A stretch of DNA of 60,400 nt from Ptychomitrium polyphyllum (taxonomy: Eukaryota): the NCBI GenBank assembly GCA_973851085.1, contig OZ316775.1:23126001-23186400 (forward strand), in the 5' to 3' direction. The first letter of the stretch is position 1. Each line of letters opens with the position of its first letter. Both the position numbers and the translations under genes were made by a program. The notes beneath the pieces are model-generated. The model ran no database searches. It was not told the origin of the DNA and worked only from the letters and a program-made list of their open reading frames with translations. Below, one piece after another: positions 12,142-60,400 of the stretch.

Positions 12142-12789
12142 TGTCACGGACATAGATCATGCAATATAGTCCTTAGAACATTCTAGAACCTTCTAATATA
12201 CTGTAATAGCTTCTTAGAATACCTTTAAATGTCTCCATAGCCTTTCTATGTTCTTAGGAAGCTTCCAAAGAAAGTTCTTTTACCTTAGGAAACTTCCTAG
12301 GAAGGTTCTATCATCTTAGGTAACTTCTTAGGAAACTTTGTAGGAAGTTTCCATCACCTTAGGAAACTTCCTAGGAGACGGTTCCATTATCTTAGGAAAC
12401 TTTCTAGGAAGGTTTTATTTCTTTAGGAATCTTCTTAAAAAGGTTCTGCTATCTGAAGAAATTTCCAAGGAAGGTTCCAATTCCTTGGATGCTTCTTTGG
12501 AAGGTTTTAACGTCTTAGGAAACTTCTTGGGAAGGTTCTCTAGACTACCAAAACATTTTTAAACCTTATAGGAAGCTTCTTTAGAAGTATTCTAGGAGAT
12601 ACAAACGTCATAGTATAAATAGAAGGCAAGGCAAGGTATTCTTTAGTCTTGCCAACACATATTGTGGATCATCTTGAATTCTGCCTTGTTGTAGTCTTTG
12701 TATCAAGTTCTTGTTAATCATTAGCTCTTTGGGAAGCTAATTCTTGGGAAACACTTCGTTTCTGCTTTTTGTTTCTTGTGTCCTCAACA
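12142..12789 (+). repeat. 3' LTR of gypsy element 1
   Basis: Begins TGTCACGGACATAG like the 5' LTR and ends in CA followed by the TSD. Confidence 0.93.
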
Positions 12790-26100: not shown

Positions 26101-28958
26101 TCAACCAAAGATTCATAAAGGCACTTCTCCAATTTGGCATATAATCCTCGCTAATATAGTTTTTCTAAAACTAATTGTACATGACATTTGTGGTCTTATT
26201 CATCCTTTGAGTATATCAAAATGCCATCCAAGTAGATGACTAGAAACTCGTCCAAGTGTTCATAGAAGATATCATTTATCATGTATTAAAAGACTGTAGG
26301 GGCATTAATAAGGCCAAAAGATGAATTAGTATAGCAATTTTTTTTGGATACTTTATTGAAGCCTCAATAGCCCACACACATACGTAATGATCCATCTTTT
26401 TTCTTTATAAATAGAACGGGTGCTCTAGCAGATGATTTAGAGTGTTGAATAAAGCCATTTCCGAGGTTTTCATCAATATATTCTCTCAAGGCAGTAAACT
26501 TGGTTTGTGATAGGTTAGAAATAGATCCAAAAGGTGGTTGGACTCTTCTTGCAAGTCAATGGCACAATAATAAGATTAATGATTTGATAAAATGTTCGCA
26601 TTCTTTTTCTCAAAAATGTCTTTATAATTTTAATATTGACGAGGCATGTTTCAATCAGTCTCTACTATAGAATTGGACAGTGGTGTGGCATAAATGGCAT
26701 AGATTAATTCATCTTTTGCCGCTCTCATGAATGCCTTGGTTCCAATAAATGATGGCCCAAGATTTCTTGTAACTTGACGTTTTTTCTTTAAGACCACCAT
26801 CCGTAAACGCCAATTAGTGTTTGGATTATGTAATTCAAATCAAGGAAGGTCCAAAATAATAAGATTTGTTTAGCATTGAATGATATTGAATACAATTTTA
26901 CATGCTTAGTCCCCTAAAACAACCTCCAAGGATTGAGTTTCTTTAATAACGTTGCCAAATGCAAGAGATTGTTCATCAATAACTTCTGCAGGTGCAGAAT
27001 ATTTTTATTTACAAGCACCATGTGATGTTTGATTGCAAAATCCTTATCTATAAAGCATATTGTTGCATCAGTGTCCAAAAGAGCTTTATTAATTATCTCA
27101 TCATCTAACAATTTAATTTTGATAGGAAATGTAAAACAAGAGGTAAGGCTTGAAGGTAGTAAGAGACCTTGATTTGATGGTTGTTTTTTTGTGGTGTCCA
27201 GTTGCATAGTTCCTACTGTGATTGAATAACCTTATTTTTCAACTACACCATTGTGCTTTGAGCTGCAAAGGCAGATCCTTTGATTTGGCAACTATGCATT
27301 TTATGTCCAGATTTGTGACAATACAAATATAGGTTTCTTCTTTAATGCCTTTCATTTTCTTTTGGAGTCAATTGTCTTAACTCAGGCAACATCAATTTGC
27401 ATAGGTTCTAATGCTTGTGGTTGGTTTTTCAATACTTTTAAAGAAGTAGTTGCCATACTTTGATGTACTGGTCGCCATCCCAAGCATTGTTCTTGGTGCC
27501 TCTTAAATAATCTATTGTCATATGCTATTGCTTGAGTAATGAATTCGTCCAGTGATTCAACTTTTGGCATTGTGAGTTGCAAGTCCTTCACGTTCTCTCT
27601 TAAGCTCTATTGGAATCGTGTGACCAAGGCCTTATTATTCCAATGAAAGTTGCAAACTAGTTCTCAAAACTCTGTAGTATATGCAGCAGCTGAGCGCTGT
27701 CCTTGTTGTAGACTATGGATCCTTGTCTCAATTACCATTTCTTGGGCGGTGTCTCCAAAAGTAGATGTCAATGTTCTTATAAAAGCATCTAAGTTGCTCA
27801 ATAATGGTGATTGCTTTTTTATTAGTAATACAAACCACTATAGAACGTTGTTTGATAGAAAAGTAGCAAAAAACTCCACTTGAGTAGTACCATCATAATA
27901 ACAAAATTGATGCAAACTAAGGAAGAGCCTTACTTGTTAAATAAAGCCTCTCAACTTTGATCTTGATCTATTGAACTTGTCAAGCATGCTAATCTTTAAT
28001 TCTGCATGGATTTGACGTAAGCCTTTTCTTCCAATATTGGCCTCTTGCATATGAACAACCTCTTGATATAGACTTTGAATATTGCCATTGGATTATTCAG
28101 CTTGCCGAGTATATTGCTCTAAATTGTTTGTAGTGTTGAAGCTAGCGTATTCCATTCTAATTATGTTTAATAACTCTTAAAGGTCTGTAGTAATTGCAAA
28201 CCTATTCTTTAATGTTCCAGGTACATTATCCATTACTTAAAATTGTCAAAGACAAGAAGACTATAGATACCCTCAAAGAAGGGTCATTTGCAACTTTTAA
28301 GATGCTATGGAATCCTAAAGAAGAAAAATAATTGACAATCTCCTTCAAAGAACCTTAGCTCTGACAAAAAGTAGTCGTGCCAAATTGTTAAAAACATAAG
28401 AAATTAGAAGGAGAAACGAAGTATTTCTCAAGAATTAGCTTCCAAAGAGCTAATGATTAACAAGAGTTTAATACAAAGACTAGAACAAGGCAAAATACAA
28501 GATGATCCACAATTTATATTGGCAAGACTAAGGAATACCTTGTCTTGTTTTTTATTTATACTATGATGCTTGTATCTTCTAGGATACTTAAAAAGAAGCT
28601 CCCTATAAGGCTTAAGAATGTTCTAAAAGTATATGGAATCTTTTCAAGAAGTTTCCTAAGATGTTGGAACCTTCATAAGAAGCTTTTAGGGATTTGAAAC
28701 CTTCCTTGAGAGTTTTATAAGGTGGTGGAACCTTCTTAGGAAGTTTTCTAAAGAGCTAGAATCTTTATAGGAAGTTTTTTTGAGGTAATGGAATCTTTCT
28801 ATGAAGTTTTCTGAGGTGGTGAAATTTTCCTAGGAAGTTTCCAAAGAATGTAGAAACGACTATGGAGACATTTGAAAGTCTTATATGAAACAATTATAAT
28901 ATATTAGAAGGTTCTAGAATGTTCTAAAGGCTATGTTGCATGATTTATGTCCGTGACA
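23159..28958 (-). mobile_element. More decayed copy of the same gypsy chromovirus family, inverted
   Basis: LTRs 28386-28958 and 23159-23730, near-TSD GCACT/TCACT, polypurine tract next to 23730. Fragmented gag/pol ORFs match element 1, with an internal RT deletion near 26330. Confidence 0.93.
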
Positions 28959-42977: not shown

Positions 42978-44090
42978 TGTTACTACAAGGAATGAATTCC
43001 ATGGCCTCCTTAAAGACCTTAGAATTTCCAATTTGTGTAAAGGCCTTTAATTTAAAGGATGCATGATTTAGGCATTTTTTTGAGGAACCACCTATCACAA
43101 ATATATATATTAGAAGCATTAAGAAAGGTTCTTAGAAAATTTAAGAAGCTTCTAAGAAAGTTATTTCGGCTTAGGAAGCTTCCAAAGAAATTACATTGGT
43201 TCAAAAAGTTTCCAAGGAAGTTACTTTGGCTTAAGAAGTCTCCATGGAAGTTACTTTGGCTTAAGAAGCTTTTAAGGAAGCAATTCAAGGTTGCTTGAGT
43301 ATGATGTAATGCAATAGAAGCTTCCTAAGAAGCTTCTAAGGCTTGTAGTTTTAGATTATATAAGAAATCAAGGCTATAGGAATCTCTAGTCTTAACAATG
43401 CATCTCTTGTGATCTAGCTTAGATTTTTTGACCTTGTCTATGTACCTTGTTATAACTCTTTACTTCTATTATACTTGCACATATCTTGTTTTACATCCTG
43501 GAATCTTGAAGCCTTATCTTGTAGTTACTCTATTTGTAACAGTTTCTCAAAACTGTCATACAACAATACCAAAGCTTGGTCCTTTTTGATAGAGAACAGA
43601 TCACCCCTCTTCTTGAAAGCACTATAGCACTCTAGAAGTTGCGGATTACCCTCCTCTAGGCTGATATTGCCTCTTGAATTTTCTTTGGTTTTTTGTATAT
43701 TTAGTAATTTTTATCTGTTTCCATTTCATTTTTATGCCAAGAGGTAAAGATGTTAATACTGATTCAAAAGAAGCTAAGTTAAATTCCATTATTAATGCCT
43801 TTGAAGCATTGAGGATCAACATCGAGACTTTATCTAAGCAAAACAAAGAATTACACTTGACCATATATAATGGTCAAGGAGCAGAAGCACCGCAATTGTT
43901 ATTCCAAGTTAACTTATGTGCTTCATCATCTAGACTTGATTTTGTAGAAGATAGACAAGTTCAAGCCGAGAATTCAATGTCAACAGCCAAAGAATCAAGA
44001 ATCAGTGTTTTGAAGAAATTTGACAATATACATTCAAAATTTCAAGGCTTTATAAACCAAGTTCAATTTATTACTTTTATTTCAATCTTG
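42978..44090 (+). mobile_element. Truncated gypsy element: one LTR (about 42978-43541) plus the start of gag
   Basis: TG...CA-bounded segment with 30-bp internal repeats and a TATA box like the other LTRs, followed by gag-like KESRISVLKKFDNIHSKFQGFINQV. Confidence 0.7.
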
Positions 44091-46547
44091 ACAGTACCCT
44101 ACAAATTCCTTACATTGTTGTAATGCTATTAATAATTTGATTTAAAATGTAGCAAATTTTTGTTATTTTGTAAATTTTAGTTTATTGTATTTAAAAGGGA
44201 ATTTTAGCACAAGAGAAATGAAGGTTGAATGAAAGGGATCATGGTAAAACCATGGTTTTATTTAGCTTGGAGGTGGAATTGCATCTTGTTTTAGTTTAAG
44301 GTGAGAGGGACCTTTTGATTGTAGTGCTTTTTTGCATGCTTTTCTTATTAGCAGTATTAAGTCACTCGCTACCATTCTACTTAATGAATTCAATAGGAAT
44401 CCAGCTCGGATTGATTTAACAGCTCAAACTTATCCAGTCAACTAAATTCTTGACTTAATGTTTGATTTTGTCTTGACAATCTCTTTATTCTTATTTTGTT
44501 TAACTCCAATTCTTTATTTGTTTTTATTTTAGTTCATTTTCTTATTTTGGATTTATAAAAGTTGGCTTTGTTTTTTTTTTGGAATTTGAATCTAAAAATT
44601 TCTTTCAAAAGAAAGAAAAGATTTACAATATTCTTTTTGATGATGTAGGAAGATAAGAAGCTAAAATAGGAGGATAAGAAGCTGATGTGGAAGTTTGACT
44701 TCCATTTTTTATTTTTATTTTATTGGCATCTTCAACTTAGTATATAAGGCCGTCCTTCTTTGGCCAATATCTAATAGCATACTTTTTAGTTTGAGTTGAA
44801 TTTTGTTTAATTTTTTTTCTTTGATTATAAGCTTTTCAAAATGCCATCACATGCTCCATTTGAAACTAATAAATAACCATGGCTCTAATTTGAATAAAAT
44901 TGATTCAATTGCCTTAAGTTTTAAGAGGAGCTGCTTTGAGTGCTTATAAGTTCTTATAGAAATGATTGTTTTTATGAAAAAATTTAAATGGTATCATCTT
45001 AATTACTTCAATACAAATAATGTAAAAATTTGAAAAACAAAAGGCTTATATGATGAGACATATGAGGTATTTGATGAATAATATACAACAGAGATTGAGT
45101 TGTACTTTTTAGGCTATAGGAGTTGAATGGACAAATTTATAAGGCTGATATTTTGGAAAATATTATTAATAAGATAAAAAAAATGAATATAAAAGTTCAT
45201 ATCTAAATTCACAATAAAAAAAGAGTTATGAGGTGTTCAAGAAGAAGGGGTCTACAAGTTACGGCAGTGGTTTCTCAATTATGATCTGAATTCTTCAACT
45301 TGGATATATTTGTACCCTAAATTTGTTGTAACCTTCAAAAGCTTATAAAATATGCTTCAATGACTCTGTGAGCTGTAGAATCAGTTCATTATAGATTTTT
45401 TTTTTAAATCATGATAAAATTTAACATTGTAGAAGAGATTAGGTCTAATTAGGGTAAAAGAAGTTGAATTATAGTTGTTATTAAAAGAAGTATAAGACAA
45501 GTGGGCAGATGGTCATGGTCCATGACACTTAAGGCCAATGCAAGAATGGAATTATAGAAAGAAAGATGAAATATACAACTTGAATATATTTTTTGCAGAT
45601 TTTAGAGCAGCAACTAAATTTAGAATGATAGTCAAAATTTATAACTGCTGCTAATTTTAGATTTATAGCTATATTTAGCAATTTTAGAGTTAAGAAAAAT
45701 TATTGTTACAATTTGATTAGGAAATTCAAGAATTAGAGGAAGGTATTTAAAGAGTAGTTAGAGTAGTTTAAAGGGGGCTTGGAGGAGCAAGATTTAAAGA
45801 ATTGGAAGTACAAAGAATTGAATTAGTAATATAAAAAGAAAAAGAAATTTCTTAGAAGAAAATCTTAGAAGAAGAGTTTTTGAGAGAATGAGAGAATAGC
45901 AAATAAGTTTAATAGAAGTAGAAAAGAAATAAGTAAGAATTAAGGTTGATGTAGTAGTTTTAGGAAGGAATAGGTGGAGTAAGAGTTAGTAAGTATTTAT
46001 AAGAGTGTAGAAGAGGAGAACAGCTCTAATTTAGTTAGAATTTTGTAGTTTTGTTTTCCATTCTTTCCTTGCAAGCTTGGGGAGAAACGGTACCATGCCA
46101 GCTGGAATGCAAGGCCAACCAGGCTGAGATCTCCGAAGGCGGAACCAGTGGAGTAAAGATTGGTTATGTGAAGATCCATCGCAACTTGTGGAGCTGGAGT
46201 GAAATAGAAAGCAGAAAATGATGGAAGAATCAGCAGCCCTACACTAAATCCACACTATACCAGAGGCAGAAATTGCTTCAAAACGCAAGATTCTCAACTG
46301 CGGAACTGGCAAAGCTGCAAGTACAAGCAAAAGTAATATAGTAGAATTCGGCCATGCGGAGGATCTATTGAGACTTGCGGAGTTGGAATAGAGAACAAAA
46401 AACGGCAAAGGATCCAGCAGTAAGAGAAGTTAAAGGTTTGTTGTAATCTAGTTAGCACAACTTAAGAAACAACAGCCCAAAGAAAAACAACTAGGCCTTG
46501 CTGTCATTTGATTATCACAAAAGAGTAGTCACAAAGCTCACTAAAAG

Positions 46548-46635
46548 TTTAGGGTTTAGGGTTTTAGGATTTAGGGTTTAGGGTTTAGGGTTTAGGGTTT
46601 AGGGTTTAGGGTTTAGGGTTTAGGGTTTAGGGTTA
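46548..46635 (+). repeat. Telomeric tract 1, (TTTAGGG) about 12 units
   Basis: Arabidopsis-type repeat with one TTTTAGGA variant; G-rich strand points towards the window end. Confidence 0.98.
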
Positions 46636-49600
46636 CAAGAGCGTCCTAGAGGTTTTAGGTGTGGCTGGATTCTAAGGTTCTGCGCGACATCTGCACACCA
46701 CGGGATTCGCAATGCCACAAGGATTCCAAAAACCCCAAGCTTTTTTGAAAATTTCAGGTTCTGCAAGAATTAGGGTTTAGGGTTTCGGGCGAGGAATTAC
46801 CCTCGTTCTGACCCTAAATCGGCCCGGGTTCACACACATTCCAAGCACAAGGTTCGAAATTGCAAGTCACCTGTGTAAAGCAAGATCAGATTGACAAGAC
46901 CGTCTACAAATTGAACCCAACTGAGGAGAGCAAAATCAGTTTCACAAGACCGTCCACAAATTGAACCCAACTGAGGAGAGCAAAATCAGTTTCACAAGAC
47001 CGTCCACAAATTGAACCCAACTGAGGAGAGCAAAATCAGTTTCACAAGACCACTGCGGCTATGTCTCAGTCACCCCTGCATAGAGCACAGCACTGCTCCA
47101 CCCGAATGCCACCGGCTTACTGCACTGTCTGGGACCAGGGGCCAGTATCATAGAACGGCCCCATTGTCCACATTAAGCATTGGGCCCGGCGAGTATTCAA
47201 GTAGGGGAGAAATGTGGACCAGAACGGAACCGGCCGTCCTCCAGTGGCGTGAAGACCAGGTCCAAGACGACAGAAATAAAGGGTTCACGGACACCAGCGA
47301 AGAAGCCATAGTTTCTTGTGAAACGGGGACAGAATGCGAGCAATATCCAGGTTGGCCAGTAGTATCTACAGCCCTCATCCCAGGTTCCATCATAGTGCGC
47401 ATGGGCAACCAATTTAGCAAGAATTGAGTTGGAAGAACAAATCTAGAATTTAAACGATCCCAATGGGAAAAGAGCGGTGAGATGGTGAACCTGGGCATTT
47501 TTTCCCGTGAAAGCCGGCCCGTCTTCGTCGCGAAAAGGTCCCAGCTCACGCTCTTCGCGTAATCCCGTCATCGACTGCGTCAATTACGGAATATTTTAGC
47601 GGAGCAGACTCACAGTTGTATCCGTCCTCAGTACTTCGTGCACGCCACCGAGCAGGTCGGAGACACAGGAACCGGGAGAGAATGAGTTCAAAATAAAAAA
47701 TCGTCCAATAACCTGGTCCCCGAGCGAGTGACGCAACTGTCCGCACTTCTGGAATTGGATCAACGAGAACCTAGTTACAACAGAATTACAAAACCAATGA
47801 GCGTCCTGTCGAATGAGCGACCATGAGAACTGGAGAAACGACTCCGTATACAACCATACTAACCCCAACATTGGTGTCGGGTGTCACGTACCTTCTTCCC
47901 TTCGAGACGACGCAGACCAGGATTCGGAAGCATGTCCTCATGCTGCCAAGAGATGAGGGGCGAGGGGGGGTGGGCAAGAAACCGTAGAGGGGACGGAGGA
48001 CGGGACATCGCCAGACCGTAAACCCGGTGCCGCTGCTGGACAGCGGACTGGAATCTCGAGAGCGCAACCCGCAGAAACGTGATACCCCTGGCCTTGTGCA
48101 CACACAGCCCCGGCGGTGCAGAAACGAAGCAGGAGTAAGGTAGTACCACCACCGGTTGCGTCGAAGTCGAGCGCCCCAACCAGGCAGGGCCGGACACAGA
48201 GGTTCACGCAAGCGGGCAGGCAGGCGAAGCGGATAGGCAGGCGAAGGAGGCGAGGGGGCAAGTGCGGAGGGCGTGCGGCGCTCCCAACACCGCACGCTGG
48301 GAGGGGCTGTCACACCCACTCCGTGACGCAACTGCACCACAGTTTTCGGCCGAGCTCCAGTCCACGGGCACTTTTAGGCGGAGCTCCAGTTCACCGGCGG
48401 TGTAGTGGCAGTTCAAGGGCTTTTCCCCTCTTACGCTTGCCACTACGAGTGGTTTTCCTCTTTCTCTTCGCATTGCGAGCGCCCTTCCTCGCACCTTTCA
48501 TACTGCCGGTGGTCGCCCTTTCACTCTCCTACGCTCTGCTGTAAAAATCGGGAGGACCCTGAACCTGGTACGGTCGGAAGGGGTAGGGTCGGAATTGGGT
48601 CTGCAAGGACGGACCGGCTTCCGATACCGGGAGTACTGGTGGGGCCGAAATTGGTCCGGGCTCGCCCCGTACTGGCCGTGACCGTCTCGCACCTACCGGT
48701 TCGTCCAATACCGGAATTGGACCGGGCTGATTCCCCGTAAGAACGGGTGGGACCGCCTAAACCCAATGAATTGGGATTCCTGCGGCCTCGTACCCGTCTC
48801 TTCTCCGATCCCGGTCATCAAAGTGCAACGGGGCATTGCACCGTGGATTAGAGGCTCTCCACGCCAGTTAGGATCTCCGCATGTTGGAGCGTAATCATGG
48901 CGAGCTCTCGGATGGGGACATCCGCCGGCCCGGTGACCGATCCGGCAGGGCTGTGGCATCCCATCCGCGGCGCAAGTCCACCGCAGTTCCAGGCCGAGCT
49001 CCAGTTCACCGGCAGCCTCGGGCGGAGCTTCCGTTGACCGTCGGTGCAGTGGCAGTTCCATGGCATCTTTCTCCCGCTTTTCGCATCGCAAGTGACTGTG
49101 CTTCTGCTCCCCTACGCTCTTCTGTAAGGGTAGGCACCACCGTGTAAGGCACTTGTATATTGTCCTGGGCGGCTCATATCTGCGATGTATTTTCAATTTA
49201 TTTTGCATATATATATTTTCGGTTCATTTTCTCCCAATTCTGTGATGCTGGATCCCTCCGTTACGGCAATCTCCGTGCACATCTGATGGTATCGCATCGC
49301 TCCGTTGGTATCACTCCGTTGGTGTCGGTCGAAGTGTGACGGCTTTACGGTTCTGACTGTGATTTCCATGCTCCGATTTAGGGGGACCGGGGTCGTGCAA
49401 GCGCTCCAGGTGTGGGGGATTTTCGCGTTCTCACCGTGACCCCGCACGTTCCCTGCGTAGTTCTGGTTCACGTTCTGTGCACGTTCAATATATCATCTGC
49501 GAAGGACGGTACCTCGTGGGTCGTACCATCCTCATATGTAGGTCATCCGCATATGTTCCGACAAACAAAAGAATAAGGACGTGGAGCGCTTCGACGTATT

Positions 49601-50086
49601 TCGAATGCATGCCGACAGTATACGCCACATTATCGGAGGAGGTGTGGGACCTGCGATGGGGACCTCCTGATTCCGTGCGGATCGTGACCCACGTTCTTCG
49701 GCGTTCGGAGATCAGGATTCCAGGATGGACGCTGTTGCGAATGTCAGCGGGCGTCCCGGGCGTCAGCCCGGGTTGGGGACCGGATCCACCACCGCCGACC
49801 CACTCCATACAGATATCGACTCCGCGTGCTTCATGATGGATCTCCGTGATCTACACGGCTTGGTCGGAGAGATCGTGCGTCCAGCCAACCGCAGAATCCG
49901 CGTGAAGGATTCCGAATTCTACAGGGAGTGGTTGCACGTCATATCCGACCCGATCGTCGTGAAGGTGGATGCAGGGCTCTCGGATGCGGAGAGGGAGGAC
50001 CAGAAGCGTTCCATCTGCCAGGAATTGCGAAGGGGCCATGGGCTGGCGCTGACTCTCAGCAACCACGACATGGTCCTCGCCAGGAG
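46636..50086. mobile_element. Telomere-embedded GC-rich element, copy 1 (distally truncated)
   Basis: Near-identical to 50228-53878, flanked by telomeric tracts, and ends inside the 517-aa ORF. Confidence 0.85.
46894..47051. repeat. 50-bp tandem repeat, 3 units, in copy 1
   Basis: ACAAGACCGTCCACAAATTGAACCCAACTGAGGAGAGCAAAATCAGTTTC. Confidence 0.95.
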
Positions 50087-50105
50087 TTTAGGGTTTAGGG
50101 TTTAG
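49725..50105 (+). pseudogene. Truncated copy of the 517-aa ORF fused to telomeric repeats
   Basis: First 121 aa match 53517..; the tail LGFRV* is read from TTTAGGG. Confidence 0.9.
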
Positions 50106-50227
50106 GGTTTAGGGTTTTAGGGTTTTAGGGTTTTAGGGTTTTAGGGTTTTAGGGTTTAGGGTTTAGGGTTTAGGGTTTAGGGTTTAGGGTTTAGGGTTTA
50201 GGGTTTAGGGTTTAGGGTTTAGGGTTA
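50087..50227 (+). repeat. Telomeric tract 2, 19 units including five consecutive TTTTAGGG variants
   Basis: 4x TTTAGGG, 5x TTTTAGGG, 10x TTTAGGG, then TTA. Confidence 0.98.
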
Positions 50228-50485
50228 CAAGAGCGTCCTAGAGGTTTTAGGTATGGCTGGATTCTAAGGTTCTGCGCGACATCTGCACACCACGGGATTC
50301 GCAATGCCACAAGGATTCCAAAAACCCCAAGCTTTTTTGAAAATTTCAGGTTCTGCAAGAATTAGGGTTTAGGGTTTCGGGCGATGAATTACCCTCGTTC
50401 TGACCCTAAATCAGCCCGGGTTCACACACATTCCAAGCACAAGGTTCGAAAGTGCAACTCAACTGTGTAAAGCAAGATCAGATTG

Positions 50486-50843
50486 ACAAGACCGTCTACA
50501 AATTGAACCCAACTGAGGAGAGCAAAATCAGTTTCACAAGACCGTCCACAAATTGAACCCAACTGAGGAGAGCAAAATCAGTTTCACAAGACCGTCCACA
50601 AATTGAACCCAACTGAGGAGAGCAAAATCAGTTTCACAAGACCGTCCACAAATTGAACCCAACTGAGGAGAGCAAAATCAGTTTCACAAGACCGTCCACA
50701 AATTGAACCCAACTGAGGAGAGCAAAATCAGTTTCACAAGACCGTCCACAAATTGAACCCAACTGAGGAGAGCAAAATCAGTTTCACAAGACCGTCCACA
50801 AATTGAACCCAACTGAGGAGAGCAAAATCAGTTTCACAAGACC
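50486..50843. repeat. 50-bp tandem repeat, 7 units, in copy 2
   Basis: Same unit as 46894; the copy offset changes from 3592 to 3792 across the array. Confidence 0.95.
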
Positions 50844-53516
50844 ACTGCGGCTATGTCTCAGTCACCCCTGCATAGAGCACAGCACTGCTCCACCCGAATG
50901 CCACCGGCTTACTGCACTGTCTGGGACCAGGGGCCAGTATCATAGAACGGCCCCATTGTCCACATTAAGCATTGGGCCCGGCGAGTATTCAAGTAGGGGA
51001 GAAATGTGGACCAGAACGGAACCGGCCGTCCTCCAGTGGCGTGAAGACCAGGTCCAAGACGACAGAAATAAAGGGTTCACGGACACCAGCGAAGAAGCCA
51101 TAGTTTCTTGTGAAACGGGGACAGAATGCGAGCAATATCCAGGTTGGCCAGTAGTATCTACAGCCCTCATCCCAGGTTCCATCATAGTGCGCATGGGCAA
51201 CCAATTTAGCAAGAATTGAGTTGGAAGAACAAATCTAGAATTTAAACGATCCCAATGGGAAAAGAGCGGTGAGATGGTGAACCTGGGCATTTTTTCCCGT
51301 GAAAGCCGGCCCGTCTTCGTCGCGAAAAGGTTCCAGCTCACGCTCTTCGCGTAATCCCGTCATCGACTGCGTCAATTACGGAATATTTTAGCGGAGCAGA
51401 CTCACAGTTGTATCCGTCCTCAGTACTTCGTGCACGCCACCGAGCAGGTCGGAGACACAGGAACCGGGAGAGAATGAGTTCAAAATAAAAAATCGTCCAA
51501 TAACCTGGTCCCCGAGCGAGTGACGCAACTGTCCGCACTTCTGGAATTGGATCAACGAGAACCTAGTTACAACAGAATTACAAAACCAATGAGCGTCCTG
51601 TCGAATGAGCGACCATGAGAACTGGAGAAACGACTCCGTATACAACCATACTAACCCCAACATTGGTGTCGGGTGTCACGTACCTTCTTCCCTTCGAGAC
51701 GACGCAGACCAGGATTCGGAAGCATGTCCTCATGCTGCCAAGAGATGAGGGGCGAGGGGGGGTGGGCAAGAAACCGTAGAGGGGACGGAGGACGGGACAT
51801 CGCCAGACCGTAAACCCGGTGCCGCTGCTGGACAGCGGACTGGAATCTCGAGAGCGCAACCCGCAGAAACGTGATACCCCTGGCCTTGTGCACACACAGC
51901 CCCGGCGGTGCAGAAACGAAGCAGGAGTAAGGTAGTACCACCACCGGTTGCGTCGAAGTCGAGCGCCCCAACCAGGCAGGGCCGGACACAGAGGTTCACG
52001 CAAGCGGGCAGGCAGGCGAAGCGGATAGGCAGGCGAAGGAGGCGAGGGGGCAAGTGCGGAGGGCGTGCGGCGCTCCCAACACCGCACGCTGGGAGGGGCT
52101 GTCACACCCACTCCGTGACGCAACTGCACCACAGTTTTCGGCCGAGCTCCAGTCCACGGGCACTTTTAGGCGGAGCTCCAGTTCACCGGCGGTGTAGTGG
52201 CAGTTCAAGGGCTTTTCCCCTCTTACGCTTGCCACTACGAGTGGTTTTCCTCTTTCTCTTCGCATTGCGAGCGCCCTTCCTCGCACCTTTCATACTGCCG
52301 GTGGTCGCCCTTTCACTCTCCTACGCTCTGCTGTAAAAATCGGGAGGACCCTGAACCTGGTACGGTCGGAAGGGGTAGGGTCGGAATTGGGTCTGCAAGG
52401 ACGGACCGGCTTCCGATACCGGGAGTACTGGTGGGGCCGAAATTGGTCCGGGCTCGCCCCGTACTGGCCGTGACCGTCTCGCACCTACCGGTTCGTCCAA
52501 TACCGGAATTGGACCGGGCTGATTCCCCGTAAGAACGGGTGGGACCGCCTAAACCCAATGAATTGGGATTCCTGCGGCCTCGTACCCGTCTCTTCTCCGA
52601 TCCCGGTCATCAAAGTGCAACGGGGCATTGCACCGTGGATTAGAGGCTCTCCACGCCAGTTAGGATCTCCGCATGTTGGAGCGTAATCATGGCGAGCTCT
52701 CGGATGGGGACATCCGCCGGCCCGGTGACCGATCCGGCAGGGCTGTGGCATCCCATCCGCGGCGCAAGTCCACCGCAGTTCCAGGCCGAGCTCCAGTTCA
52801 CCGGCAGCCTCGGGCGGAGCTTCCGTTGACCGTCGGTGCAGTGGCAGTTCCATGGCATCTTTCTCCCGCTTTTCGCATCGCAAGTGACTGTGCTTCTGCT
52901 CCCCTACGCTCTTCTGTAAGGGTAGGCACCACCGTGTAAGGCACTTGTATATTGTCCTGGGCGGCTCATATCTGCGATGTATTTTCAATTTATTTTGCAT
53001 ATATATATTTTCGGTTCATTTTCTCCCAATTCTGTGATGCTGGATCCCTCCGTTACGGCAATCTCCGTGCACATCTGATGGTATCGCATCGCTCCGTTGG
53101 TATCACTCCGTTGGTGTCGGTCGAAGTGTGACGGCTTTACGGTTCTGACTGTGATTTCCATGCTCCGATTTAGGGGGACCGGGGTCGTGCAAGCGCTCCA
53201 GGTGTGGGGGATTTTCGCGTTCTCACCGTGACCCCGCACGTTCCCTGCGTAGTTCTGGTTCACGTTCTGTGCACGTTCAATATATCATCTGCGAAGGACG
53301 GTACCTCGTGGGTCGTACCATCCTCATATGTAGGTCATCCGCATATGTTCCGACAAACAAAAGAATAAGGACGTGGAGCGCTTCGACGTATTTCGAATGC
53401 ATGCCGACAGTATACGCCACATTATCGGAGGAGGTGTGGGACCTGCGATGGGGACCTCCTGATTCCGTGCGGATCGTGACCCACGTTCTTCGGCGTTCGG
53501 AGATCAGGATTCCAGG

Positions 53517-55070
53517 ATGGACGCTGTTGCGAATGTCAGCGGGCGTCCCGGGCGTCAGCCCGGGTTGGGGACCGGATCCACCACCGCCGACCCACTCCAT
53601 ACAGATATCGACTCCGCGTGCTTCATGATGGATCTCCGTGATCTACACGGCCTGGTCGGAGAGATCGTGCGTCCAGCCAACCGCAGAATCCGCGTGAAGG
53701 ATTCCGAATTCTACAGGGAGTGGTTGCACGTCATATCCGACCCGATCGTCGTGAAGGTGGATGCAGGGCTCTCGGATGCGGAGAGGGAGGACCAGAAGCG
53801 TTCCATCTGCCAGGAGTTGCGAAGGGGCCATGGGCTGGCGCTGACTCTCAGCAACCACGACATGGTCCTCGCCAGGAGCCAGGTGAACGTCCCCCTCCGA
53901 GCGATGGTGGAAGCGCTCCGGGCGTGCGGCCATGTGGAATGCCGGGTGGGGTTCTATGGCATGAAGTGGGCCTACCAGAAAGCCCAGCCTAGAATCGACC
54001 GCTTCGTGCAGTACCACACGGCCCTCCGCGGGAGAGTAGCTGTGGGGAGGAGGAACCAATTCGACATCGGGACGCTGCTGCCTGCAGCGACGATAGATGT
54101 CCTCTGCTTCGGCGAGGGTCAGTTCGGTCCCGTTCGAAGATTCAGGCAGGGCAAAATACACGAGATGTTCGACATTCCCAACCACGGCTCCCTGGAGTTC
54201 TACCTATCGGGCCACGAAGGGATCGGGAAGGTCAAAATCTACCACGAGCCGTGCCATGATGTCCTGTCCGCCATACCGAGGCACAGCCTGGACGACATGC
54301 CCAAGACGATCCGCACCATGCGCATCCGGGCGGAGCAGATGGAGAAACTATTACGAGCATGGGAAGGGTACGACGGTGCGACGTTGAGGGAACGCCTGCT
54401 GGGCACCAGGATCGAAGTGTCCATCGCACGTGCCCACACAGTCGCGGAGGCCCACCGTATGTGTTCGGACCTGGGGCTGCTGCAATTGCAGGGCATCGAG
54501 AGATTGCTGGGGGGGCCGTTCCGCACCCAAAGCATTTCCGCCCACGAAGTCCTGCACAACCTCAGATCGAAGGTCCGGATACTGCAAGGCCTGGTACTGG
54601 GCGGGAACGATTGCACGCCGAGCATCGCGATGCGGTCCGCCCTCACGAGGGCTCGCCAGGCAGTCGGATGGAGCGGCAAACACATGCGGCGTCACCTCAA
54701 GGACGCTCGGAATTGGGGGGGGGCTGTGGTGGATCAGCAGGTACGGAAAGAGCGTCCGTTGTTCCACTACGACGGTTGGGAGCTGGATGATGCGCACAAC
54801 CGGCCCGTGATCCAGGACTTCCTGGACAACGCGTCCTGGCAGAATCACAGTCGGGCGAGGGAGAGGGACCCCCATCCCACCATGCTGCAGAAGGTGAGAG
54901 GAGGCGGGTACTGGAAAATGGAAGGGGTGTACGTGGATCGGGTCACCGGCGCCCGCCACTTCATCAACAAATACGGCAGGAATTGGAGGAGACATGTGAA
55001 GGCCAAGCCAGAGGGTTTAGGGTCGGACAATGAAACATTCCGTTGTCCAGTGGACTCATTCGAGACGTAG
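53517..55070 (+). CDS. Intronless 517-aa protein of unknown family (possible nuclease or replication initiator)
   Basis: Long intact ORF with globular composition. The two substitutions noticed against copy 1 are both synonymous. Motifs DIDS, FYGMK, FDIG, KIYH and GTRIEV. Confidence 0.85.
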   Translation: MDAVANVSGRPGRQPGLGTGSTTADPLHTDIDSACFMMDLRDLHGLVGEIVRPANRRIRVKDSEFYREWLHVISDPIVVKVDAGLSDAEREDQKRSICQELRRGHGLALTLSNHDMVLARSQVNVPLRAMVEALRACGHVECRVGFYGMKWAYQKAQPRIDRFVQYHTALRGRVAVGRRNQFDIGTLLPAATIDVLCFGEGQFGPVRRFRQGKIHEMFDIPNHGSLEFYLSGHEGIGKVKIYHEPCHDVLSAIPRHSLDDMPKTIRTMRIRAEQMEKLLRAWEGYDGATLRERLLGTRIEVSIARAHTVAEAHRMCSDLGLLQLQGIERLLGGPFRTQSISAHEVLHNLRSKVRILQGLVLGGNDCTPSIAMRSALTRARQAVGWSGKHMRRHLKDARNWGGAVVDQQVRKERPLFHYDGWELDDAHNRPVIQDFLDNASWQNHSRARERDPHPTMLQKVRGGGYWKMEGVYVDRVTGARHFINKYGRNWRRHVKAKPEGLGSDNETFRCPVDSFET

Positions 55071-56432
55071 CGAAACCGGGCCGCATCTGGTCGTGCAGTG
55101 ATCACGTGCATCGGATACTGATGTCCAAATTGCCCCGGGATACTCGGCGTCTGTCGCCGGTGTCCACCTCCGACCACCGTCCGCGTGGTCCCTCAACATG
55201 CGGATCTCCAAAGTTCCGTCGTTGCAAGATGCCGACGTCTCGTCCAGTAGCTAACCCAGCGTAGGGGGGTGCGGGACCCGGAGATGCCGGTTGCTCCAAA
55301 AAGAACCCAGCGCTCGTCGGCTGGCATTACAGTCCGCCGCAGGTTCAGGCAGAGCGACAAGTTCACCTGCGTCTTTTACGCACAGCTTCAGTTCACCGGC
55401 AGTTCTAGGCAGAGCTTCAGTTCACAGCCGGTGCAGCGGCAGTGTCGACGGCCCTCTGTTCCCAACAATGATTCACCAGATGAACTCGGCTCTCTTCCAA
55501 GAGGGTCGAATGTCATTCCCCAGTCAGCCCAAGGAGGCCATAGAGGAGACAGCTGCTGACCGTCGAACGATGATATGTATCGAGGTCTTTCATGCAGTGC
55601 ATTGATGTCCCCAATAAGCTTCGGAGGTGCATCCGGGATTGGCCCCGGTGGAACCGGTATCTCGGTACCGGGTCCGAATTGGGTCGCTTGGACGGACCGG
55701 CTATCCAGTACTGGGGTACGGGTTCCGGAGCCGGTACTCGGTCATGCTCGCCCTGACCCGCAACTCCGAAATCGCAAGATACTGGGAGGACTCTGAGGAT
55801 TGGGAGGAAGTTGGAATGGAACGTAGGTAACCCTGTTTTGATTTCTAGTTTTCCATCCGTCTTCGGGCTCAGGGAATCAGGGGTTTAGGGTACTGGGCTT
55901 CGGGTTTAGGGTACTGGGTTTCTAGGGTTTAGGGTTTCGGAATGGGTCGCCAGGACGGACCGGCCATCCAGTATAGTACCGGGGTTTAGGGGTTGAGGAC
56001 CCGATACTGGTCGGCGCCCTCCTTGAGCCGGTCGTCGTATCCTCGCACTTATATGTCAAATGTGTGTTTGAATGTCCACCTTCCCGTCCCATTTTGTGTA
56101 TCAAGTACGTTCATGGAATATATATCAGATTTTGGATTCGCTTTCGAATTTTTCTTCAGGTGATGGTCCGATGTTCACACTGTCGGAGGTTGAGGGTGGT
56201 TTGGCTCCTTCTCATCCGGTTGTGGCGATTGAAGAATGCAGTTGAGTCAGACCTACATAATCCGCCGGTCTCATGTTCTGTGGATTATATGAACGCCACA
56301 GCTATGAGGCCTTCCGTGCAGTGACGAGAAACTTATACTCAACCATTCACTGTTTCGATTCATAACGCCAAAAACTCCGAGGCTATACAAAAACATCGGA
56401 ATACCTGAACGTGGGCTCGTGGGTTGACGGCA

Positions 56433-56645
56433 TAGTCCGCCGCAGGATTGGGCAGAGTGACCAATTCACCTTCAATTTGTAGGCACAGCTTCACTTCACC
56501 TGCAATTTTTAGGCACAGCTTCACTTCACCTGCAATTTTTAGGCACAGCTTCACTTCACCTGCAAATTTTAGGCACAGCTTCAGTTCACCGGTAGTTTCT
56601 AGGCAGAGCCTCAGTTCACAGCCGGTGCAGCGGCAGTTTGGACGG
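56433..56645. repeat. 30-bp tandem repeat (AGGCACAGCTTCACTTCACCTGCAATTTTT-type) of the intergenic module
   Basis: About 6 units here; diverged versions at 52133-52205, 52770-52850 and 55331-55455. Confidence 0.85.
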
Positions 56646-57297
56646 CTTTTTCTTCTCTTACCGTTCATATCGCAGAGTGATTTTCCTTTTACTTTCCTAC
56701 GCTCCTCCCTGAATAGAGTCACCACACTTGTAGGCGCTATTATATACCATGTGCTCAGTTTATATTGTGGATATGTTTTCAATTCATTTTTGGTGCGGCA
56801 CGTGCTGGTGGGTCCTCTGCCACTGCCGTCCGGGCACATAGTTGATGGTAATGTACCCCTCCATCCGCACGACCCATGGTTTTGATGGAAGTCTCGTGGC
56901 TTTCGCATTCATGGGGATTTCCGTGGTCCGATCGTAGTGTCCAGACCCGATCCTAGAGGTCTCCGACTTGTGCGAGTTTCCGCAGGTCCAGGGGATTTCG
57001 CGGTTCCGATCGTGACTGCAAGTTTTGAGTGTGTTCCCAATCGATGTCCTCTATGTATTCAGTATATTCCCTGTTCACCTCCCACGGACGGCATCTTCTC
57101 GGTCGTACCCATTCCTCCTGTAAGGTATCTGCTCATTCCGAAATAAACCCCCCCCCCCCCCATTACTGCGGCCTGTTTTGATTTTATTTTGATCCGGTCC
57201 GGCAGATCTTGGTGTGAACCACGCCGATCTCTTGACCCGTGACTTTGCAAGCATTCCCTGATCTCCGGGATCCGCTGCAAGGAGGTCGCAATTGCGG

Positions 57298-58480
57298 ATG
57301 GCGCCCATCGAGTGCAGGCAGGATTCCTGGCTCTGGTCGCGAGAGTTGTGGGTTTGGGAATTCATGTTAAAGTGCACGGATGGAGTTCTAGTGCTGGAGG
57401 AGTTCCGGAAGGAAGTGCCCTTTCCAGAAGGAGTTCCCCGACTGACTCAGATGTCCATAATCAGAGATGTCACCGGTCTACTGTCGACTCCTCCGCTCGA
57501 AAGGCACAGCATCAAGCAAGTCAAGCGACTCCTGCGAACCCTCACATATACGATGCTCGTCGGCAAGGATGAGGTGAAGCTGAAGGATACGGTGGTCGGG
57601 GGGCGCCTGAGACATGCCCTACAACCGGAGGACTTCCTCGATCCCATCCGGGAGCTGAAAAACGAGCTCAGAGGGTGGATTCCAGGCGCACAGGACAATC
57701 CCAGACAATACGAGGCCATCCGGGACAAGCTCTCCATACTGGCACAGAGAGCTTGGGCTTCGTTCGGATCCTTGGCGCTCGACGCACCCATACAAACCGC
57801 CGTTGTTGGGAGGCGCCCCCCGGAAGTCCAGCCGCCAGGAGCAGCTCCAGGAGATGGGCCTCCCCTTGCAGGAGCCAGCGGCATCTGCGAAGCTACCAGG
57901 TTGAATGACCTGGAGAACCATTTCAACAGAAGATGCTCCCAACTGGAGCAGCTCATCGCGGAGCAAGCCGACCAGCATCAGCAAGATATCCGAGCTCTAG
58001 GGGCTGCGGGGTTCGCAGTCGGCTCGAGGCAGACCTCCACCGACCAGGAACTGTCGGATCCAGGATCTCCCCCTCCGTTAGTGGGCCCACACCGTGCCGT
58101 GTTCGGCCCCCCCGTGTGCCTGCCTGAAGATGGGCCGAGCCGGGAGGCACACCAGCAGAACGGGAAGCGACTTCTCGAGGAGGACGACCTGCAGCCCAAA
58201 AGCGGCCGAGCGAAGCCTCGAACCCACCAGCGATGAATCCGCCGACCATTTCGTGGCGCCCCCAGCATCCGGTTCGACACAGGGAAGGCAGAGAAGGAAG
58301 TGGACGGACCGGGAGGTAGAGGTACTGAGGGCCGGCGTCAGAAAATACGGTATTGGAAAATGGAAGCAGATCTTGACCAGGTTTCAAGACGAACTACCCG
58401 GCCGCACCAATGTGGATATCAAGGATAAGTACATGGCTCTCATAGGCGTCAAGAAGAAGTACATTAAGAAGGAGGCTTAG
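57298..58480 (+). CDS. Protein with a helical N-terminal region, coiled coil and C-terminal telobox-type Myb domain, split across two frames
   Basis: ORF 57298-58236 overlaps ORF 58094-58480 in the +1 frame. The latter contains RRKWTDREVEVLRAGVRKYGIGKWKQILTRFQDELPGRTNVDIKDKY, matching TRF/TRB-type Myb domains. Likely 5'UTR intron at 57125-57205. Confidence 0.8.
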
Positions 58481-59254
58481 ATTGTAGAGAGTGTGTCGCC
58501 GGAGGGTTCACACCCGCTGTCGTGCTCCCCGTCGGAGACTCGTATGTGGCCACCGGCCCCATTTTGGAATAAGGAAGACGGCGTCCATTACTCGCCGTCT
58601 CTGTATGGGGCCCGAGCGACCAGGTTCGGGCACTCCCACGCGGAACACGACCGGTCTCGAAAGTCGGACGGGATCGGTATCGGTGCAGCCGGAATCGGTC
58701 GCCGCGGAACCCATGTCCCGGTACGGGGTCCGAATTGGGTAGCCAGGACGGAACAGCCACCCGGTACCGGGCTACGGTTCACGGGTTCAGGGTCTACGGC
58801 TCCGGGTTTAGGGTCCGGTATTTCGGTCCAGCGTTCGAATTGGGTCGCCTAGACGGACCAGTCATCCAGTACCGCGGTACGGGAGCCGGGTTCGGGGTAT
58901 CGGGTTCATGGTATCGGGTTCAGGGTATTGGGTTCGAAGTTTCGGTACTGGGTTCGAATCGGGTCGCCCGGACTGGCCAGCCATCCAGTACAGTGCCGGG
59001 GTAGGGGTTCGGGGCCCGATACTGGCCATTTTGTATGTGAAATACGTTCATGAAGTATACATGAGATTTTGGATTCGCTTCTAAATTTTCCTTCGGGTGA
59101 TGATCTGATGTCCGTACCGTCGACCAGGTTTTAGGGTGGTTCGGCTTCTTTGCACCCAACTGTGACGACATCAGAATGTTGTTGAATTAGACTCACATAA
59201 TCCGTCGGCCTCACTGGCTACTGTCGACATTACGTTCCAATGTATACTGTTATC

Positions 59255-59553
59255 TTTATTGTGTATACTCATGCTTCCGGAGAAGGTGTAAGTACGATAC
59301 TGTCACAATCGATGATGAAGGTCATGATCGACTGATGTATTATGCAAGTCGGCAATTGACATCAACCGAAGGGAGTGACACAGTTATGTAGAGAGAAGAA
59401 TCGGCAATTATTTTTGCCTCGGGGAAACCCCTTCATCATATATTCGGAAACAAGACCAGTATCAAGATAAATCACCAAGCACTAGGCTATCGTATCAATA
59501 AATGCAATATTGTAAGCCGAACTGCTCGGTGGATAATACTAGTGCATGTTTTC
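59255..59553 (+). pseudogene. Degenerate Ty3/gypsy-type RNase H fragment
   Basis: Manual translation: FIVYTHASGEGVSTILSQ / (frameshift) DDEGHDRLMYYASRQLTSTEGSDTVM*REESAIIFASGKPLHHIFGNKTSIKINHQALGYRINKCNIVSRTARWIIL. Confidence 0.8.
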
Positions 59554-59680
59554 AGGAGGAGTTATCTCTCTGACTGTGCTTAGAGTGCTGACATTACCTT
59601 CCATCGTCGTACTTGTTGCAACATAAGAAATCAGTGTTCAAGTGGACCAGGGGTTGTAGTAATAGAGTTCATCACTGTCA

Positions 59681-60055
59681 GTGAGGAAAACAAGGGGAAA
59701 CGAGATTCATTTCATCATCACTGGGCACTGGGATTCGGAACGCCGTGTGCCAAGGCGCCCACATTGTGCTCCAGGGTGGTTTGGGGTCATACGACAATGC
59801 AGTGAGAAAGTCAACATGTGTGACGGCACATGCGGCCATGCAGTGGGGGGGGGGGGGAGTCACTTGTGTGACCGGGTTCTCCCACGGTGTAGGAGCTCCG
59901 AACGGGAGTTCGGAATGGTATGGCTTTCGTTCACCGGGCTCAACATGCCCGAGTTGTGGACGGATGAAGTTAAGGCCCGTCATACTTCATCCTCTCGTGA
60001 CGGCCTCATGCGGTATCGGATGAAGACGCGCGAGGCCTTTTCCGAAAGAGCATGA
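59681..60055 (+). other. Possible small ORF or exon of a third element gene
   Basis: Open frame in GC-rich sequence spanning a G homopolymer; no recognisable motif. Confidence 0.25.
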
Positions 60056-60367
60056 AGAATGCAAGTTGATGGTCCATTTCGGGGACCGGGTCTGAGCGAC
60101 CACGAAAACATCAGAACTGTCGAGTGTAAGAACTGTCGAGTGACCAGGTTTAACTGGGTGCCGAAATTCGCCCACAACAGGCACGAAATTCCGAAATTCC
60201 GGGCGCATGCACGTAGGCGCATGCTGACGGACGTGACGGACATGTCGGGTAGAGGGGAAAGCCAGGCCGGATGACATGGCACTGGAGGCGCGGAGAACTG
60301 AGCACAGGACTGAAGATACCGCCATGTGTCAAACCCGGATTGGAACGCCGCAGACGACACCCGCATC

Positions 60368-60400
60368 TAGGATTTAGGGTTTTAGGGTTTAGGGTTAGGG
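60368..60400 (+). repeat. Telomeric tract 3 running to the window end (probable chromosome terminus)
   Basis: TAGGA TTTAGGG TTTTAGGG TTTAGGG TTAGGG. Confidence 0.9.

What the first reader, a model, noticed from the sequence alone, without database searches (positions are those of the whole stretch)
53517..55070. Orphan 517-aa protein with a candidate Rep_trans-like catalytic layout
Seen: an intact ORF with spaced motifs HTDIDS, GFYGMK, QFDIG, GSLEFY, KVKIYH and GTRIEVSI. Known: non-HUH rolling-circle initiators (Rep_trans/pT181, inovirus gpII type) use metal-binding Asp residues, a catalytic Tyr in a beta-strand IY motif and a downstream R-x-E. Inference, weak and from motif spacing only: this could be the nicking or mobilising enzyme, implying DNA-based rather than RT-based addition to telomeres.
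Basis: inference. Interest (0 to 1): 0.8.

Follow-up and report, generated by a model that had tools for sequence, protein, structure and literature searches.

The report
Rolling-circle nickase element at moss telomeres
A DNA unit stacked head-to-tail between telomere repeats, likely in a moss, has no detectable reverse transcriptase but encodes a protein predicted to share the fold and catalytic residues of bacterial rolling-circle nicking enzymes, so it likely adds itself to chromosome ends as DNA.

Summary
The 517-aa ORF is intact, but it is not an orphan: 182 relatives were found, named ones in mosses and one chytrid. A confident model of its core (pLDDT 94) best matches the two solved Rep_trans initiators, RepSTK1 (Z 7.2, the only chain of 48,161 at Z>=5) and RepDE. 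D32, D183, Y242, R298 and E300 are conserved and lie on predicted strands in RepD order. Pfam and motifs I and III do not match, so it is Rep_trans-like, not a PF02486 member. The gene sits in a ~10.1-kb unit between TTTAGGG tracts, next to a 99.6% identical copy broken inside the ORF and capped with repeats. The unit also carries a telomere-type Myb domain. No RT, helicase, HUH motif or hammerhead was found. Related elements start with the same TAGGGTT-ACA junction, vary at the far end, and carry the gene in either orientation. Best reading: a telomere-appending DNA element whose nickase likely cuts that junction and joins copies to chromosome ends (0.6). Nicking is untested. A 2026 paper places Rep_trans-type enzymes only in bacteria and archaea.

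The parts
46547..46634 (+). Telomere-repeat tract (TTTAGGG)n joining AT-rich host DNA to the first element copy; ends GGGTT before the element's ACA
46635..50086 (+). Element copy 1, truncated at its far end inside the Rep-like ORF (after 120 codons; ORF start 49725). 9 substitutions against copy 2 over 3452 aligned nt, 2 of them in the ORF, both synonymous; 4 fewer units of the 50-bp repeat
50087..50226 (+). Telomere-repeat tract capping the broken copy 1 (inferred telomerase healing) and preceding copy 2
50220..50229 (+). Conserved junction TAGGGTT-ACA, candidate nick or joining site (cut position inferred)
50227..60367 (+). Element copy 2, about 10.1 kb, GC 47-61% against 18-49% in the host flank; may itself be truncated at the far end
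50456..50843 (+). 50-bp tandem array (7.8 units; 3.5 in copy 1), about 230 nt inside the start; related loci carry a ~59-bp array inside their start; candidate Rep binding site (inferred)
53517..55070 (+). Rep_trans-like (TBP-fold, non-HUH) nickase gene, 517 aa: core about aa 24-345, then a helical and mixed C-terminal part of no assigned fold
53604..53612 (+). D30-x-D32; D32 is the predicted equivalent of RepD D46 / RepSTK1 D9 (metal ligand)
   Evidence: range offsets, assuming no gap in the first strand
54063..54065 (+). D183, predicted second metal ligand (RepD D142)
   Evidence: equivalence inferred from order
54234..54242 (+). K240-x-Y242, predicted catalytic tyrosine on a beta-strand (RepD R189-x-Y191)
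54408..54416 (+). R298-x-E300 (RepD R212-x-E214, third metal ligand)
57298..58236 (+). Second ORF (312 aa from ATG), no relatives found; in runs X1, X2 and X4 one letter at 58198 is absent, which puts it in the frame of the Myb domain
58292..58435 (+). Telomere-repeat-binding-type Myb domain (frame 58082-58480)
   Evidence: PF00249, E 7e-9; top 21 of 29 PDB hits are TRF1/TRF2/Terfa/plant TBP1-type telomere binders
52096..52856 (+). Two copies (52096-52212, 52740-52856, 77% alike) of an internal repeat that recurs at 55344-55452 and 56538-56646, upstream of the two ORFs; role unknown
55626..56273 (+). Repeat module downstream of the Rep-like ORF with degenerate telomere-like units, paralogous to 58682-59213 downstream of the Myb
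59320..59553 (+). Degenerate Ty3/gypsy-type RNase H fragment with a stop codon; likely captured cargo
   Evidence: PF17917, E 0.0095, below cut-off
60368..60400 (+). Telomere repeats at the window end

Best explanation
This gene lies in a DNA unit that is stacked head-to-tail between telomere-repeat tracts, and it encodes a predicted Rep_trans-fold tyrosine nickase that likely mobilises the unit to chromosome ends without reverse transcription. Shown: the array structure, a fixed inner junction (TAGGGTT-ACA on the G-rich strand), variable outer ends capped by TTTAGGG, conserved D/D/Y/RxE residues, and a telomere-type Myb in the same unit. Predicted: the TBP-like Rep_trans fold. Inferred mechanism: the enzyme nicks the G-rich strand of a donor at the repeat/element junction (GGGTT^ACA) and stays bound to the element's 5' end through Y242. 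Host replication from the free 3'-OH displaces the element strand. The bound 5' end is then joined to a telomeric 3'-OH, either a natural end or a nick in the repeats, directly or through a circle. The outer end breaks or stops at random and telomerase caps it, giving the next target. The Myb protein would help targeting where present; the 3.3-kb units of the related lineage show none, so it is accessory.
For: Fold: VIA wide on the core model gives RepSTK1 Z 7.2, rmsd 3.9, 180 aligned, the only one of 48,161 chains at Z>=5; RepDE is second (Z 4.9, 159 aligned) and TBP fifth and sixth. The independent full-length model gave RepDE as Foldseek rank 1 (E 0.04) and RepSTK1 Z 7.3. Language-model features of aa 24-345 point to Phage_CRI and Rep_trans clusters at 0.92-0.94 (family shares 10-67%). 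Residues: compared with RepD D46/D142/E214/Y191. Telomere link: the window array. 9 of 13 metagenome loci carry a telomere tract or the junction in or beside the unit. 4 of 7 Ceratodon locus tags are among the first five of their chromosome (position inferred from numbering). Fixed start: TAGGGTTACA at 2 of 2 window starts and 14 of 15 starts marked by an independent motif in the loci (12 distinct), although the two lineages share about 44% protein identity and little else in DNA. L006 holds six successive starts 526, 1180, 1439, 2023 and 141 nt apart. No RT or helicase among 97 window and 91 locus frames. No hammerhead core in the first 600 nt of 12 starts or by Rfam. The gene faces the telomere in the window but away from it in L001 and L002. 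A T^A cut would match the CT'AA nic site of Rep_trans and MOBT enzymes.
Against: No activity is shown. Foldseek gives no PDB match at E<=0.001, and a PP2C phosphatase outranks RepDN by E-value for the core, though with probability 0.10 against 0.77. The tool notes that Z under 8 can be a common arrangement. RepD R140 and K193 have no conserved counterpart, and K193A impairs RepD. No hairpin at the junction: z +0.7 to +1.5 for four stretches, whereas known nic sites sit in hairpin loops. The shared junction is only 3 letters beyond the repeat (1 in 64 by chance), and the 13 loci are one lineage (80-97% DNA identity), so this is one comparison of two lineages. A fixed inner end with ragged outer ends is also what telomeric retroelements give, and copying by recombination between repeat tracts would give arrays too. 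An RT partner elsewhere in the genome could not be sought (no genome held). L008 and L009 are decayed copies with no tract beside them.
Confidence: 0.6

Rival explanations
1. A Y'-like subtelomeric repeat (yeast Y' recalled, no call): units spread by break-induced copying or recombination between telomere tracts. The Rep-like enzyme only amplifies excised circles from some other origin, or nicks telomeres to provoke recombination, and does not make the junction.
For: Copies 1 and 2 are adjacent and 99.6% identical. Each unit is flanked by repeat tracts that could recombine. No hairpin at the junction.
Against: Recombination alone puts no constraint on the first letters after the tract, yet ACA is shared by two distant lineages. 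Tracts between units are often only 9-39 nt, which is short for homologous recombination (inference). No helicase is encoded.
Confidence: 0.2
2. A non-autonomous telomeric retroelement (Terminon/Athena-like): an RT supplied in trans copies a C-strand RNA onto the chromosome end, and the Rep-like gene is cargo.
For: Same polarity and array type. Terminons are capped by short telomeric stretches, form head-to-tail arrays and can carry Rep genes. The unit holds an RNase H relic, so it captures retro sequence.
Against: No RT in any frame scanned. No hammerhead core at 12 starts or by Rfam. The Rep-like gene is the only long ORF seen in the 3.3-kb units L001 and L005 and is under purifying selection. 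Its orientation varies, and in the window both ORFs would be antisense to such an RNA.
Confidence: 0.13
3. A domesticated host gene pair (nickase plus Myb) for telomere upkeep, multiplied passively in subtelomeric duplications.
For: Purifying selection; a telomere-type Myb; relatives in several mosses.
Against: Many copies are broken or frameshifted and interrupted by telomere tracts. At least two deep clades occur within one species (P0002 and P0021 in P. patens). The GC content differs from the host flank.
Confidence: 0.07

Closest known systems
Rep_trans initiators RepSTK1 and RepD/RepDE (pT181 family, PF02486), Phage_CRI/gpII (PF05144), MOBT relaxases
   Same: Predicted TBP-like fold across the whole core; D...D...Y...RxE in the same order on strands; no HUH
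   Different: No Pfam match. RxD and YxKxxE are not kept. Y to RxE spacing is 56 residues against 21, through a helical insertion. Eukaryotic, chromosomal and telomere-linked. No hairpin at the presumed nick.
Rep-Arvir / RepSNJ2 (archaea, PMC13107129)
   Same: A Rep_trans relative recognisable only by structure, with a divergent K-x-Y motif and a spaced acidic triad
   Different: Replicates viruses and plasmids from a hairpin origin and has a wHTH domain; no direct comparison with this protein was run
Helitrons and Replitrons (eukaryotic rolling-circle transposons)
   Same: Tyrosine-nickase DNA transposition (inferred here), gene-fragment capture, presence in mosses for Replitrons
   Different: They use HUH enzymes, which are unrelated in fold. 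'telomer' and 'Rep_trans' do not occur in the Replitron paper's text. No helicase here.
Terminons/Athena, MoTeR, HeT-A/TART (telomeric retroelements)
   Same: Head-to-tail arrays at ends, short telomeric tracts between units, fixed inner and ragged outer ends (HeT-A/TART from recall and search listings)
   Different: They depend on RT, and Terminons on a 3' hammerhead; neither was found. Which Rep class Terminons carry could not be checked (paper not held).
Yeast Y' elements (recalled)
   Same: Tandem subtelomeric units separated by telomere repeats, with no RT
   Different: Y' encodes a helicase; this unit encodes a predicted nickase and a Myb

Membership tests
Rep_trans (PF02486) / Phage_CRI (PF05144) | Match to the Pfam profile above its cut-off | tested here: not met
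   0 families for P0001 and 4 relatives; none of 20 aligned members hits either family at E<=1
Rep_trans (PF02486) / Phage_CRI (PF05144) | TBP-like fold of the catalytic domain | tested here: met
   On a predicted model: RepSTK1 Z 7.2, rmsd 3.9, 180 aligned; RepDE Z 4.9, rmsd 5.1, 159 aligned; TBP Z 4.6 and 4.5. Foldseek not significant.
Rep_trans (PF02486) / Phage_CRI (PF05144) | Invariant tyrosine on a beta-strand | tested here: met
   Y242 60/61; strand 213-220 of the core model = aa 236-243
Rep_trans (PF02486) / Phage_CRI (PF05144) | D, D, E metal ligands, each on a separate strand, in order | tested here: met
   D32 45/48, D183 44/51, E300 56/58 on three strands
Rep_trans (PF02486) / Phage_CRI (PF05144) | D, D, E and Y clustered in one site in 3D | not testable with these tools
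   Model coordinates and residue-level structural alignments are not returned
Rep_trans (PF02486) / Phage_CRI (PF05144) | Motif IV RxE | tested here: met
   R298 51/57, E300 56/58; motif list
Rep_trans (PF02486) / Phage_CRI (PF05144) | Motif I RxD and motif III YxKxxE | tested here: not met
   Position 181 is variable; position 244 is E 36/60, K 12/60; position 247 is H 52/58
Rep_trans (PF02486) / Phage_CRI (PF05144) | Nick site in a hairpin loop | tested here: inconclusive
   No folding better than shuffles at the junction, but the nick site is only presumed
Rep_trans (PF02486) / Phage_CRI (PF05144) | Metal-dependent nicking with a 5'-phosphotyrosine adduct | not testable with these tools
   Needs a bench assay
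HUH rolling-circle transposons (Helitron, Replitron) | Conserved HUH motif | tested here: not met
   H-hydrophobic-H in 2 of 22 proteins, at unrelated places
HUH rolling-circle transposons (Helitron, Replitron) | Helicase domain (Helitron) | tested here: not met
Terminon/Athena telomeric retroelements | Reverse transcriptase in the unit | tested here: not met
   0 of 97 window frames >=60 aa and 0 of 91 locus frames >=85 aa (10 of 13 loci scanned); the unit may extend beyond the window
Terminon/Athena telomeric retroelements | Hammerhead ribozyme next to the telomeric repeats | tested here: not met
   0 of 12 starts; Rfam none at E<=5
Terminon/Athena telomeric retroelements | Head-to-tail arrays capped by short telomeric stretches | tested here: met
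Telomere-binding (telobox) Myb domains | Closest solved relatives are TRF/TBP1-type domains | tested here: met
   Top 21 of 29 hits
Telomere-binding (telobox) Myb domains | Binds telomeric repeats | not testable with these tools
   Needs a binding assay

The most novel reading that the evidence does not exclude
A new order of eukaryotic DNA transposon: the first with a Rep_trans/TBP-fold transposase, and one that needs no target-site cut because it ligates its 5' end straight onto the 3' end of a telomere. It builds head-to-tail arrays at moss chromosome ends, recruits its own telomere-binding Myb, and has distant relatives in a chytrid fungus.
Probability: 0.45. Interest if true: 0.93.

Novelty: categorically new. 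Interest (0 to 1): 0.86.

Why it matters
Of the two unrelated rolling-circle nickase folds, only HUH is described in eukaryotic mobile elements. A 2026 paper states that Rep_trans enzymes appear restricted to bacteria and extends them to archaea. This family would put the fold in eukaryotes and add a transposase chemistry to the eukaryotic list. The telomere-specific elements of eukaryotes seen in the searches are retroelements; a DNA nick-and-join route to chromosome ends would be a different way of extending and reshaping telomeres. It is testable in P. patens and Ceratodon, which carry relatives. It also offers a candidate cause for discrete telomere-hybridising bands reported in moss blots (link not tested).

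Tried and rejected
Pfam and PDB sequence searches gave nothing useful. The Atlas search with the whole protein ranked two RdRP-labelled clusters first (0.93, recognition 1742, below the tool's mark); rejected because the core-only search and the fold searches point to Rep_trans/Phage_CRI, and no RdRP appears among the listed PDB fold hits. PP2C hits in Foldseek have TM about 0.10 and probability <=0.10. Helical-bundle ties for the full-length model cover only aa 243-386. BFVD top hits (E 2.5e-4 and 5.6e-4) are unnamed in the tool; only A0A345MNV4, rank 22, is named as an inovirus Rep_trans by a paper. No relative was found by pattern scans of viral contigs or prokaryotic genomes; these find close relatives only. 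A profile search added nothing. The second ORF has no relatives at 172-550 aa. No RNA holder listed. The homodimer job gave no answer. Contig depth falls along the unit in X1, but the tool says depth cannot rank parts, so it was not used. No hairpin at either end. DNA similarity between the first 330 nt of the two lineages is marginal and involves a telomere-like stretch (4 of 300 shuffles reach it). TAGGGTTACA at window 3817-3826 has no tract or element beside it and is taken as chance. A residue-level alignment to RepD was not obtained (record not found). One tree run failed. Earlier scan notes: nothing by sequence, place or words. Literature searches listed no paper describing this element or a eukaryotic Rep_trans. 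The library lacks most subscription papers; Repbase, the P. patens near-T2T paper and the 2017 Terminon paper were not seen, and no supplements were read.

Full report
1. Observation. The ORF at 53517-55070 (+) is intact, 517 aa, and holds the quoted motifs. Pfam and PDB sequence searches are blank. The protein has relatives: 8 close ones at 42-60% identity and 182 representatives at E<=0.001, of which the best 150 were listed. Named relatives are hypothetical proteins of Physcomitrium patens and Ceratodon purpureus and, distantly (E 2e-10), two adjacent genes of the chytrid Fimicolochytrium jonesii. The host is therefore likely a moss (inferred from the relatives, the TTTAGGG repeat and a Ty3/gypsy element at 7406-10338). 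No genome is held.

2. The protein. In 157 aligned rows (174 less 17 near-duplicate cluster members; many fragments) the best kept residues include D30 45/48, D32 45/48, K150 51/55, D183 44/51, K240 57/61, Y242 60/61, H247 52/58, R298 51/57 and E300 56/58. Among 20 mostly long and diverse members only G224, Y242, R298 and E300 are invariant. RepD uses Y191 as nucleophile and D46, D142 and E214 as metal ligands, each on its own strand, with R140, R189, K193 and R212 conserved (PMC4797284, passages; motif list in PMC5714925, passages). A full-length model (17 rows, pLDDT 75.5) and a core model (aa 24-345, 133 rows, pLDDT 94.2, pTM 0.89) place D30/D32, D183, Y242 and R298/E300 on four strands in that order.

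3. Fold searches. Aligned in full to 48,161 chains, the core model gives RepSTK1 first (Z 7.2, rmsd 3.9, 180 aligned, the only chain at Z>=5), RepDE second (Z 4.9, rmsd 5.1, 159 aligned), and TBP fifth and sixth. The starts of both Rep alignments put D32 on RepSTK1 D9 and RepD D46 if the first strand has no gap. Foldseek is weaker. For the full model RepDE is rank 1 at E 0.04. For the core RepDN is rank 2 (E 0.0099, probability 0.77) behind a PP2C (E 0.0088, probability 0.10). Atlas features of the core point to Phage_CRI and Rep_trans clusters (0.92-0.94), while the whole protein first hit RdRP-labelled clusters. Against membership: no Pfam match, no RxD, no YxKxxE, and a longer Y-to-RxE spacing. 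There is no conserved HUH. So it is predicted to work like a Rep_trans enzyme but is a separate family, much as the archaeal Rep-Arvir family is (PMC13107129, abstract, sections 4 and 26).

4. The element. AT-rich host DNA ends at a TTTAGGG tract (46547-46634). Copy 1 (46635-50086) follows, breaks inside the ORF after 120 codons and is capped by a second tract (50087-50226). Copy 2 (50227-60367) holds the whole ORF and ends in repeats at the window edge. The copies differ by 9 substitutions and 4 units of a 50-bp array. Copy 2 also holds a second ORF and a Myb domain whose top 21 of 29 solved relatives are telomere binders. In 3 of 4 runs one letter at 58198 is absent, which puts ORF and Myb in one frame; the fourth run does not show it. 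A decayed RNase H fragment lies at 59320-59553. None of 97 frames of 60 aa or more matches an RT or helicase.

5. Relatives in context. Thirteen metagenome loci encode relatives at 35-58% identity; they are 80-97% alike in DNA and count as one lineage. Eight carry telomere tracts of two or more units in or beside the unit, L013 has the junction with a shorter tract, L010 and L011 are short, and L008 and L009 are decayed copies with no tract beside them. L012 repeats the window's pattern: ORF broken, repeats added, new start. L006 has six starts in a row at uneven spacing. Of 15 starts found by an internal motif, 14 read TAGGGTT-ACA and one is degenerate; 3 of the 14 duplicate another locus, and one more start in L003 was found by the junction itself, giving 12 distinct. 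Both window starts read the same, though the two lineages share little other DNA. In L001 and L002 the gene is inverted relative to the telomere strand. L001 and L005 hold units of about 3.3 kb with no other long ORF, and no Myb, RT or helicase was found in 91 frames from 10 of the 13 loci. dN/dS for L001 v L002 is 0.039/0.144. Four of 7 Ceratodon tags are among the first five of a chromosome, one is twelfth, and two are high numbers whose distance to the end is unknown; the P. patens tags give no position.

6. Mechanism. Rep_trans enzymes nick one strand, bind the 5' end through tyrosine and free a 3'-OH. MOBT members also do strand transfer and cut at CT'AA (PMC9371924, passages). An element whose 5' end lies on the G-rich strand directly after telomere repeats has the polarity such an enzyme needs to join it to a telomeric 3'-OH. 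This explains the fixed inner end, the ragged outer end and the free orientation of the gene. The outer breaks end in one to three G before the new repeats in the cases checked, as telomerase healing would give (inference). All steps after the fold are inferred. The main weaknesses are the short (3-letter) junction signal from only two lineages, the lack of a hairpin, and the fact that retroelements give the same polarity (PMC6431247, passages and section 8; PMC7367193, abstract and outline). Odds: Rep_trans-like fold and active site about 0.9; telomere-targeted mobile element about 0.9; Rep-driven DNA addition 0.6; recombination-driven spread 0.2; retro passenger 0.13; domesticated gene 0.07.

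7. Novelty. PMC13107129 says HUH enzymes occur in all three domains while Rep_trans enzymes appear restricted to bacteria, and it adds archaea. Replitrons occur in mosses but are HUH, and that paper's text has no 'telomer' or 'Rep_trans' (PMC10288648, passages). Passages of two moss telomere and genome papers mention unusual repeats and discrete telomeric bands but no such element (PMC11871058; PMC10856949). Passages of a telomere review added nothing (PMC9498494). Eight searches listed no description. Repbase, subscription papers, the 2017 Terminon paper and all supplements were not seen, so an earlier repeat-library entry is possible. Y' elements and HeT-A/TART details are recalled.

8. Verdict. 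It is best filed as a telomere-appending mobile element with a eukaryotic Rep_trans-like nickase, mechanism untested. Interest 0.86.

Noticed in passing
window 7406-10338: Ty3/gypsy LTR retrotransposon gag and pol (RT, RNase H, integrase zinc finger) in the host flank.
   Followed up: no
window 6381-6508, 12244-12414, 23407-23618, 28634-28840, 43119-43280: A dispersed family of 30-33-bp degenerate tandem repeats in the AT-rich host DNA.
   Followed up: no
window 52096-52856, 55344-55452, 56415-56646; 55626-56273 and 58682-59213: Each ORF has a paralogous upstream module and a paralogous downstream module, as if the Myb cassette was built by duplicating the Rep cassette's flanks; two upstream modules have no long ORF after them.
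   Followed up: partly
window 58719-59046: In runs X1 and X2, loose ends here continue into CCCTAAA repeats and into unrelated DNA, so this module also occurs in other settings or in the opposite orientation.
   Followed up: no
window 53640-54843: One contig of run X2 joins these places on opposite strands: an inversion within the Rep-like gene in some copy.
   Followed up: no
L013 2688-3497: About 800 nt inserted inside the Rep-like gene.
   Followed up: no
P0120: The chytrid relative carries a cysteine-rich insertion after the helical region and is encoded by two adjacent identical genes.
   Followed up: no
window 57148-57176 and 59828-59856: Weak 29-nt inverted repeat with poly-C and poly-G runs, 72% complementary; likely chance.
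   Followed up: no
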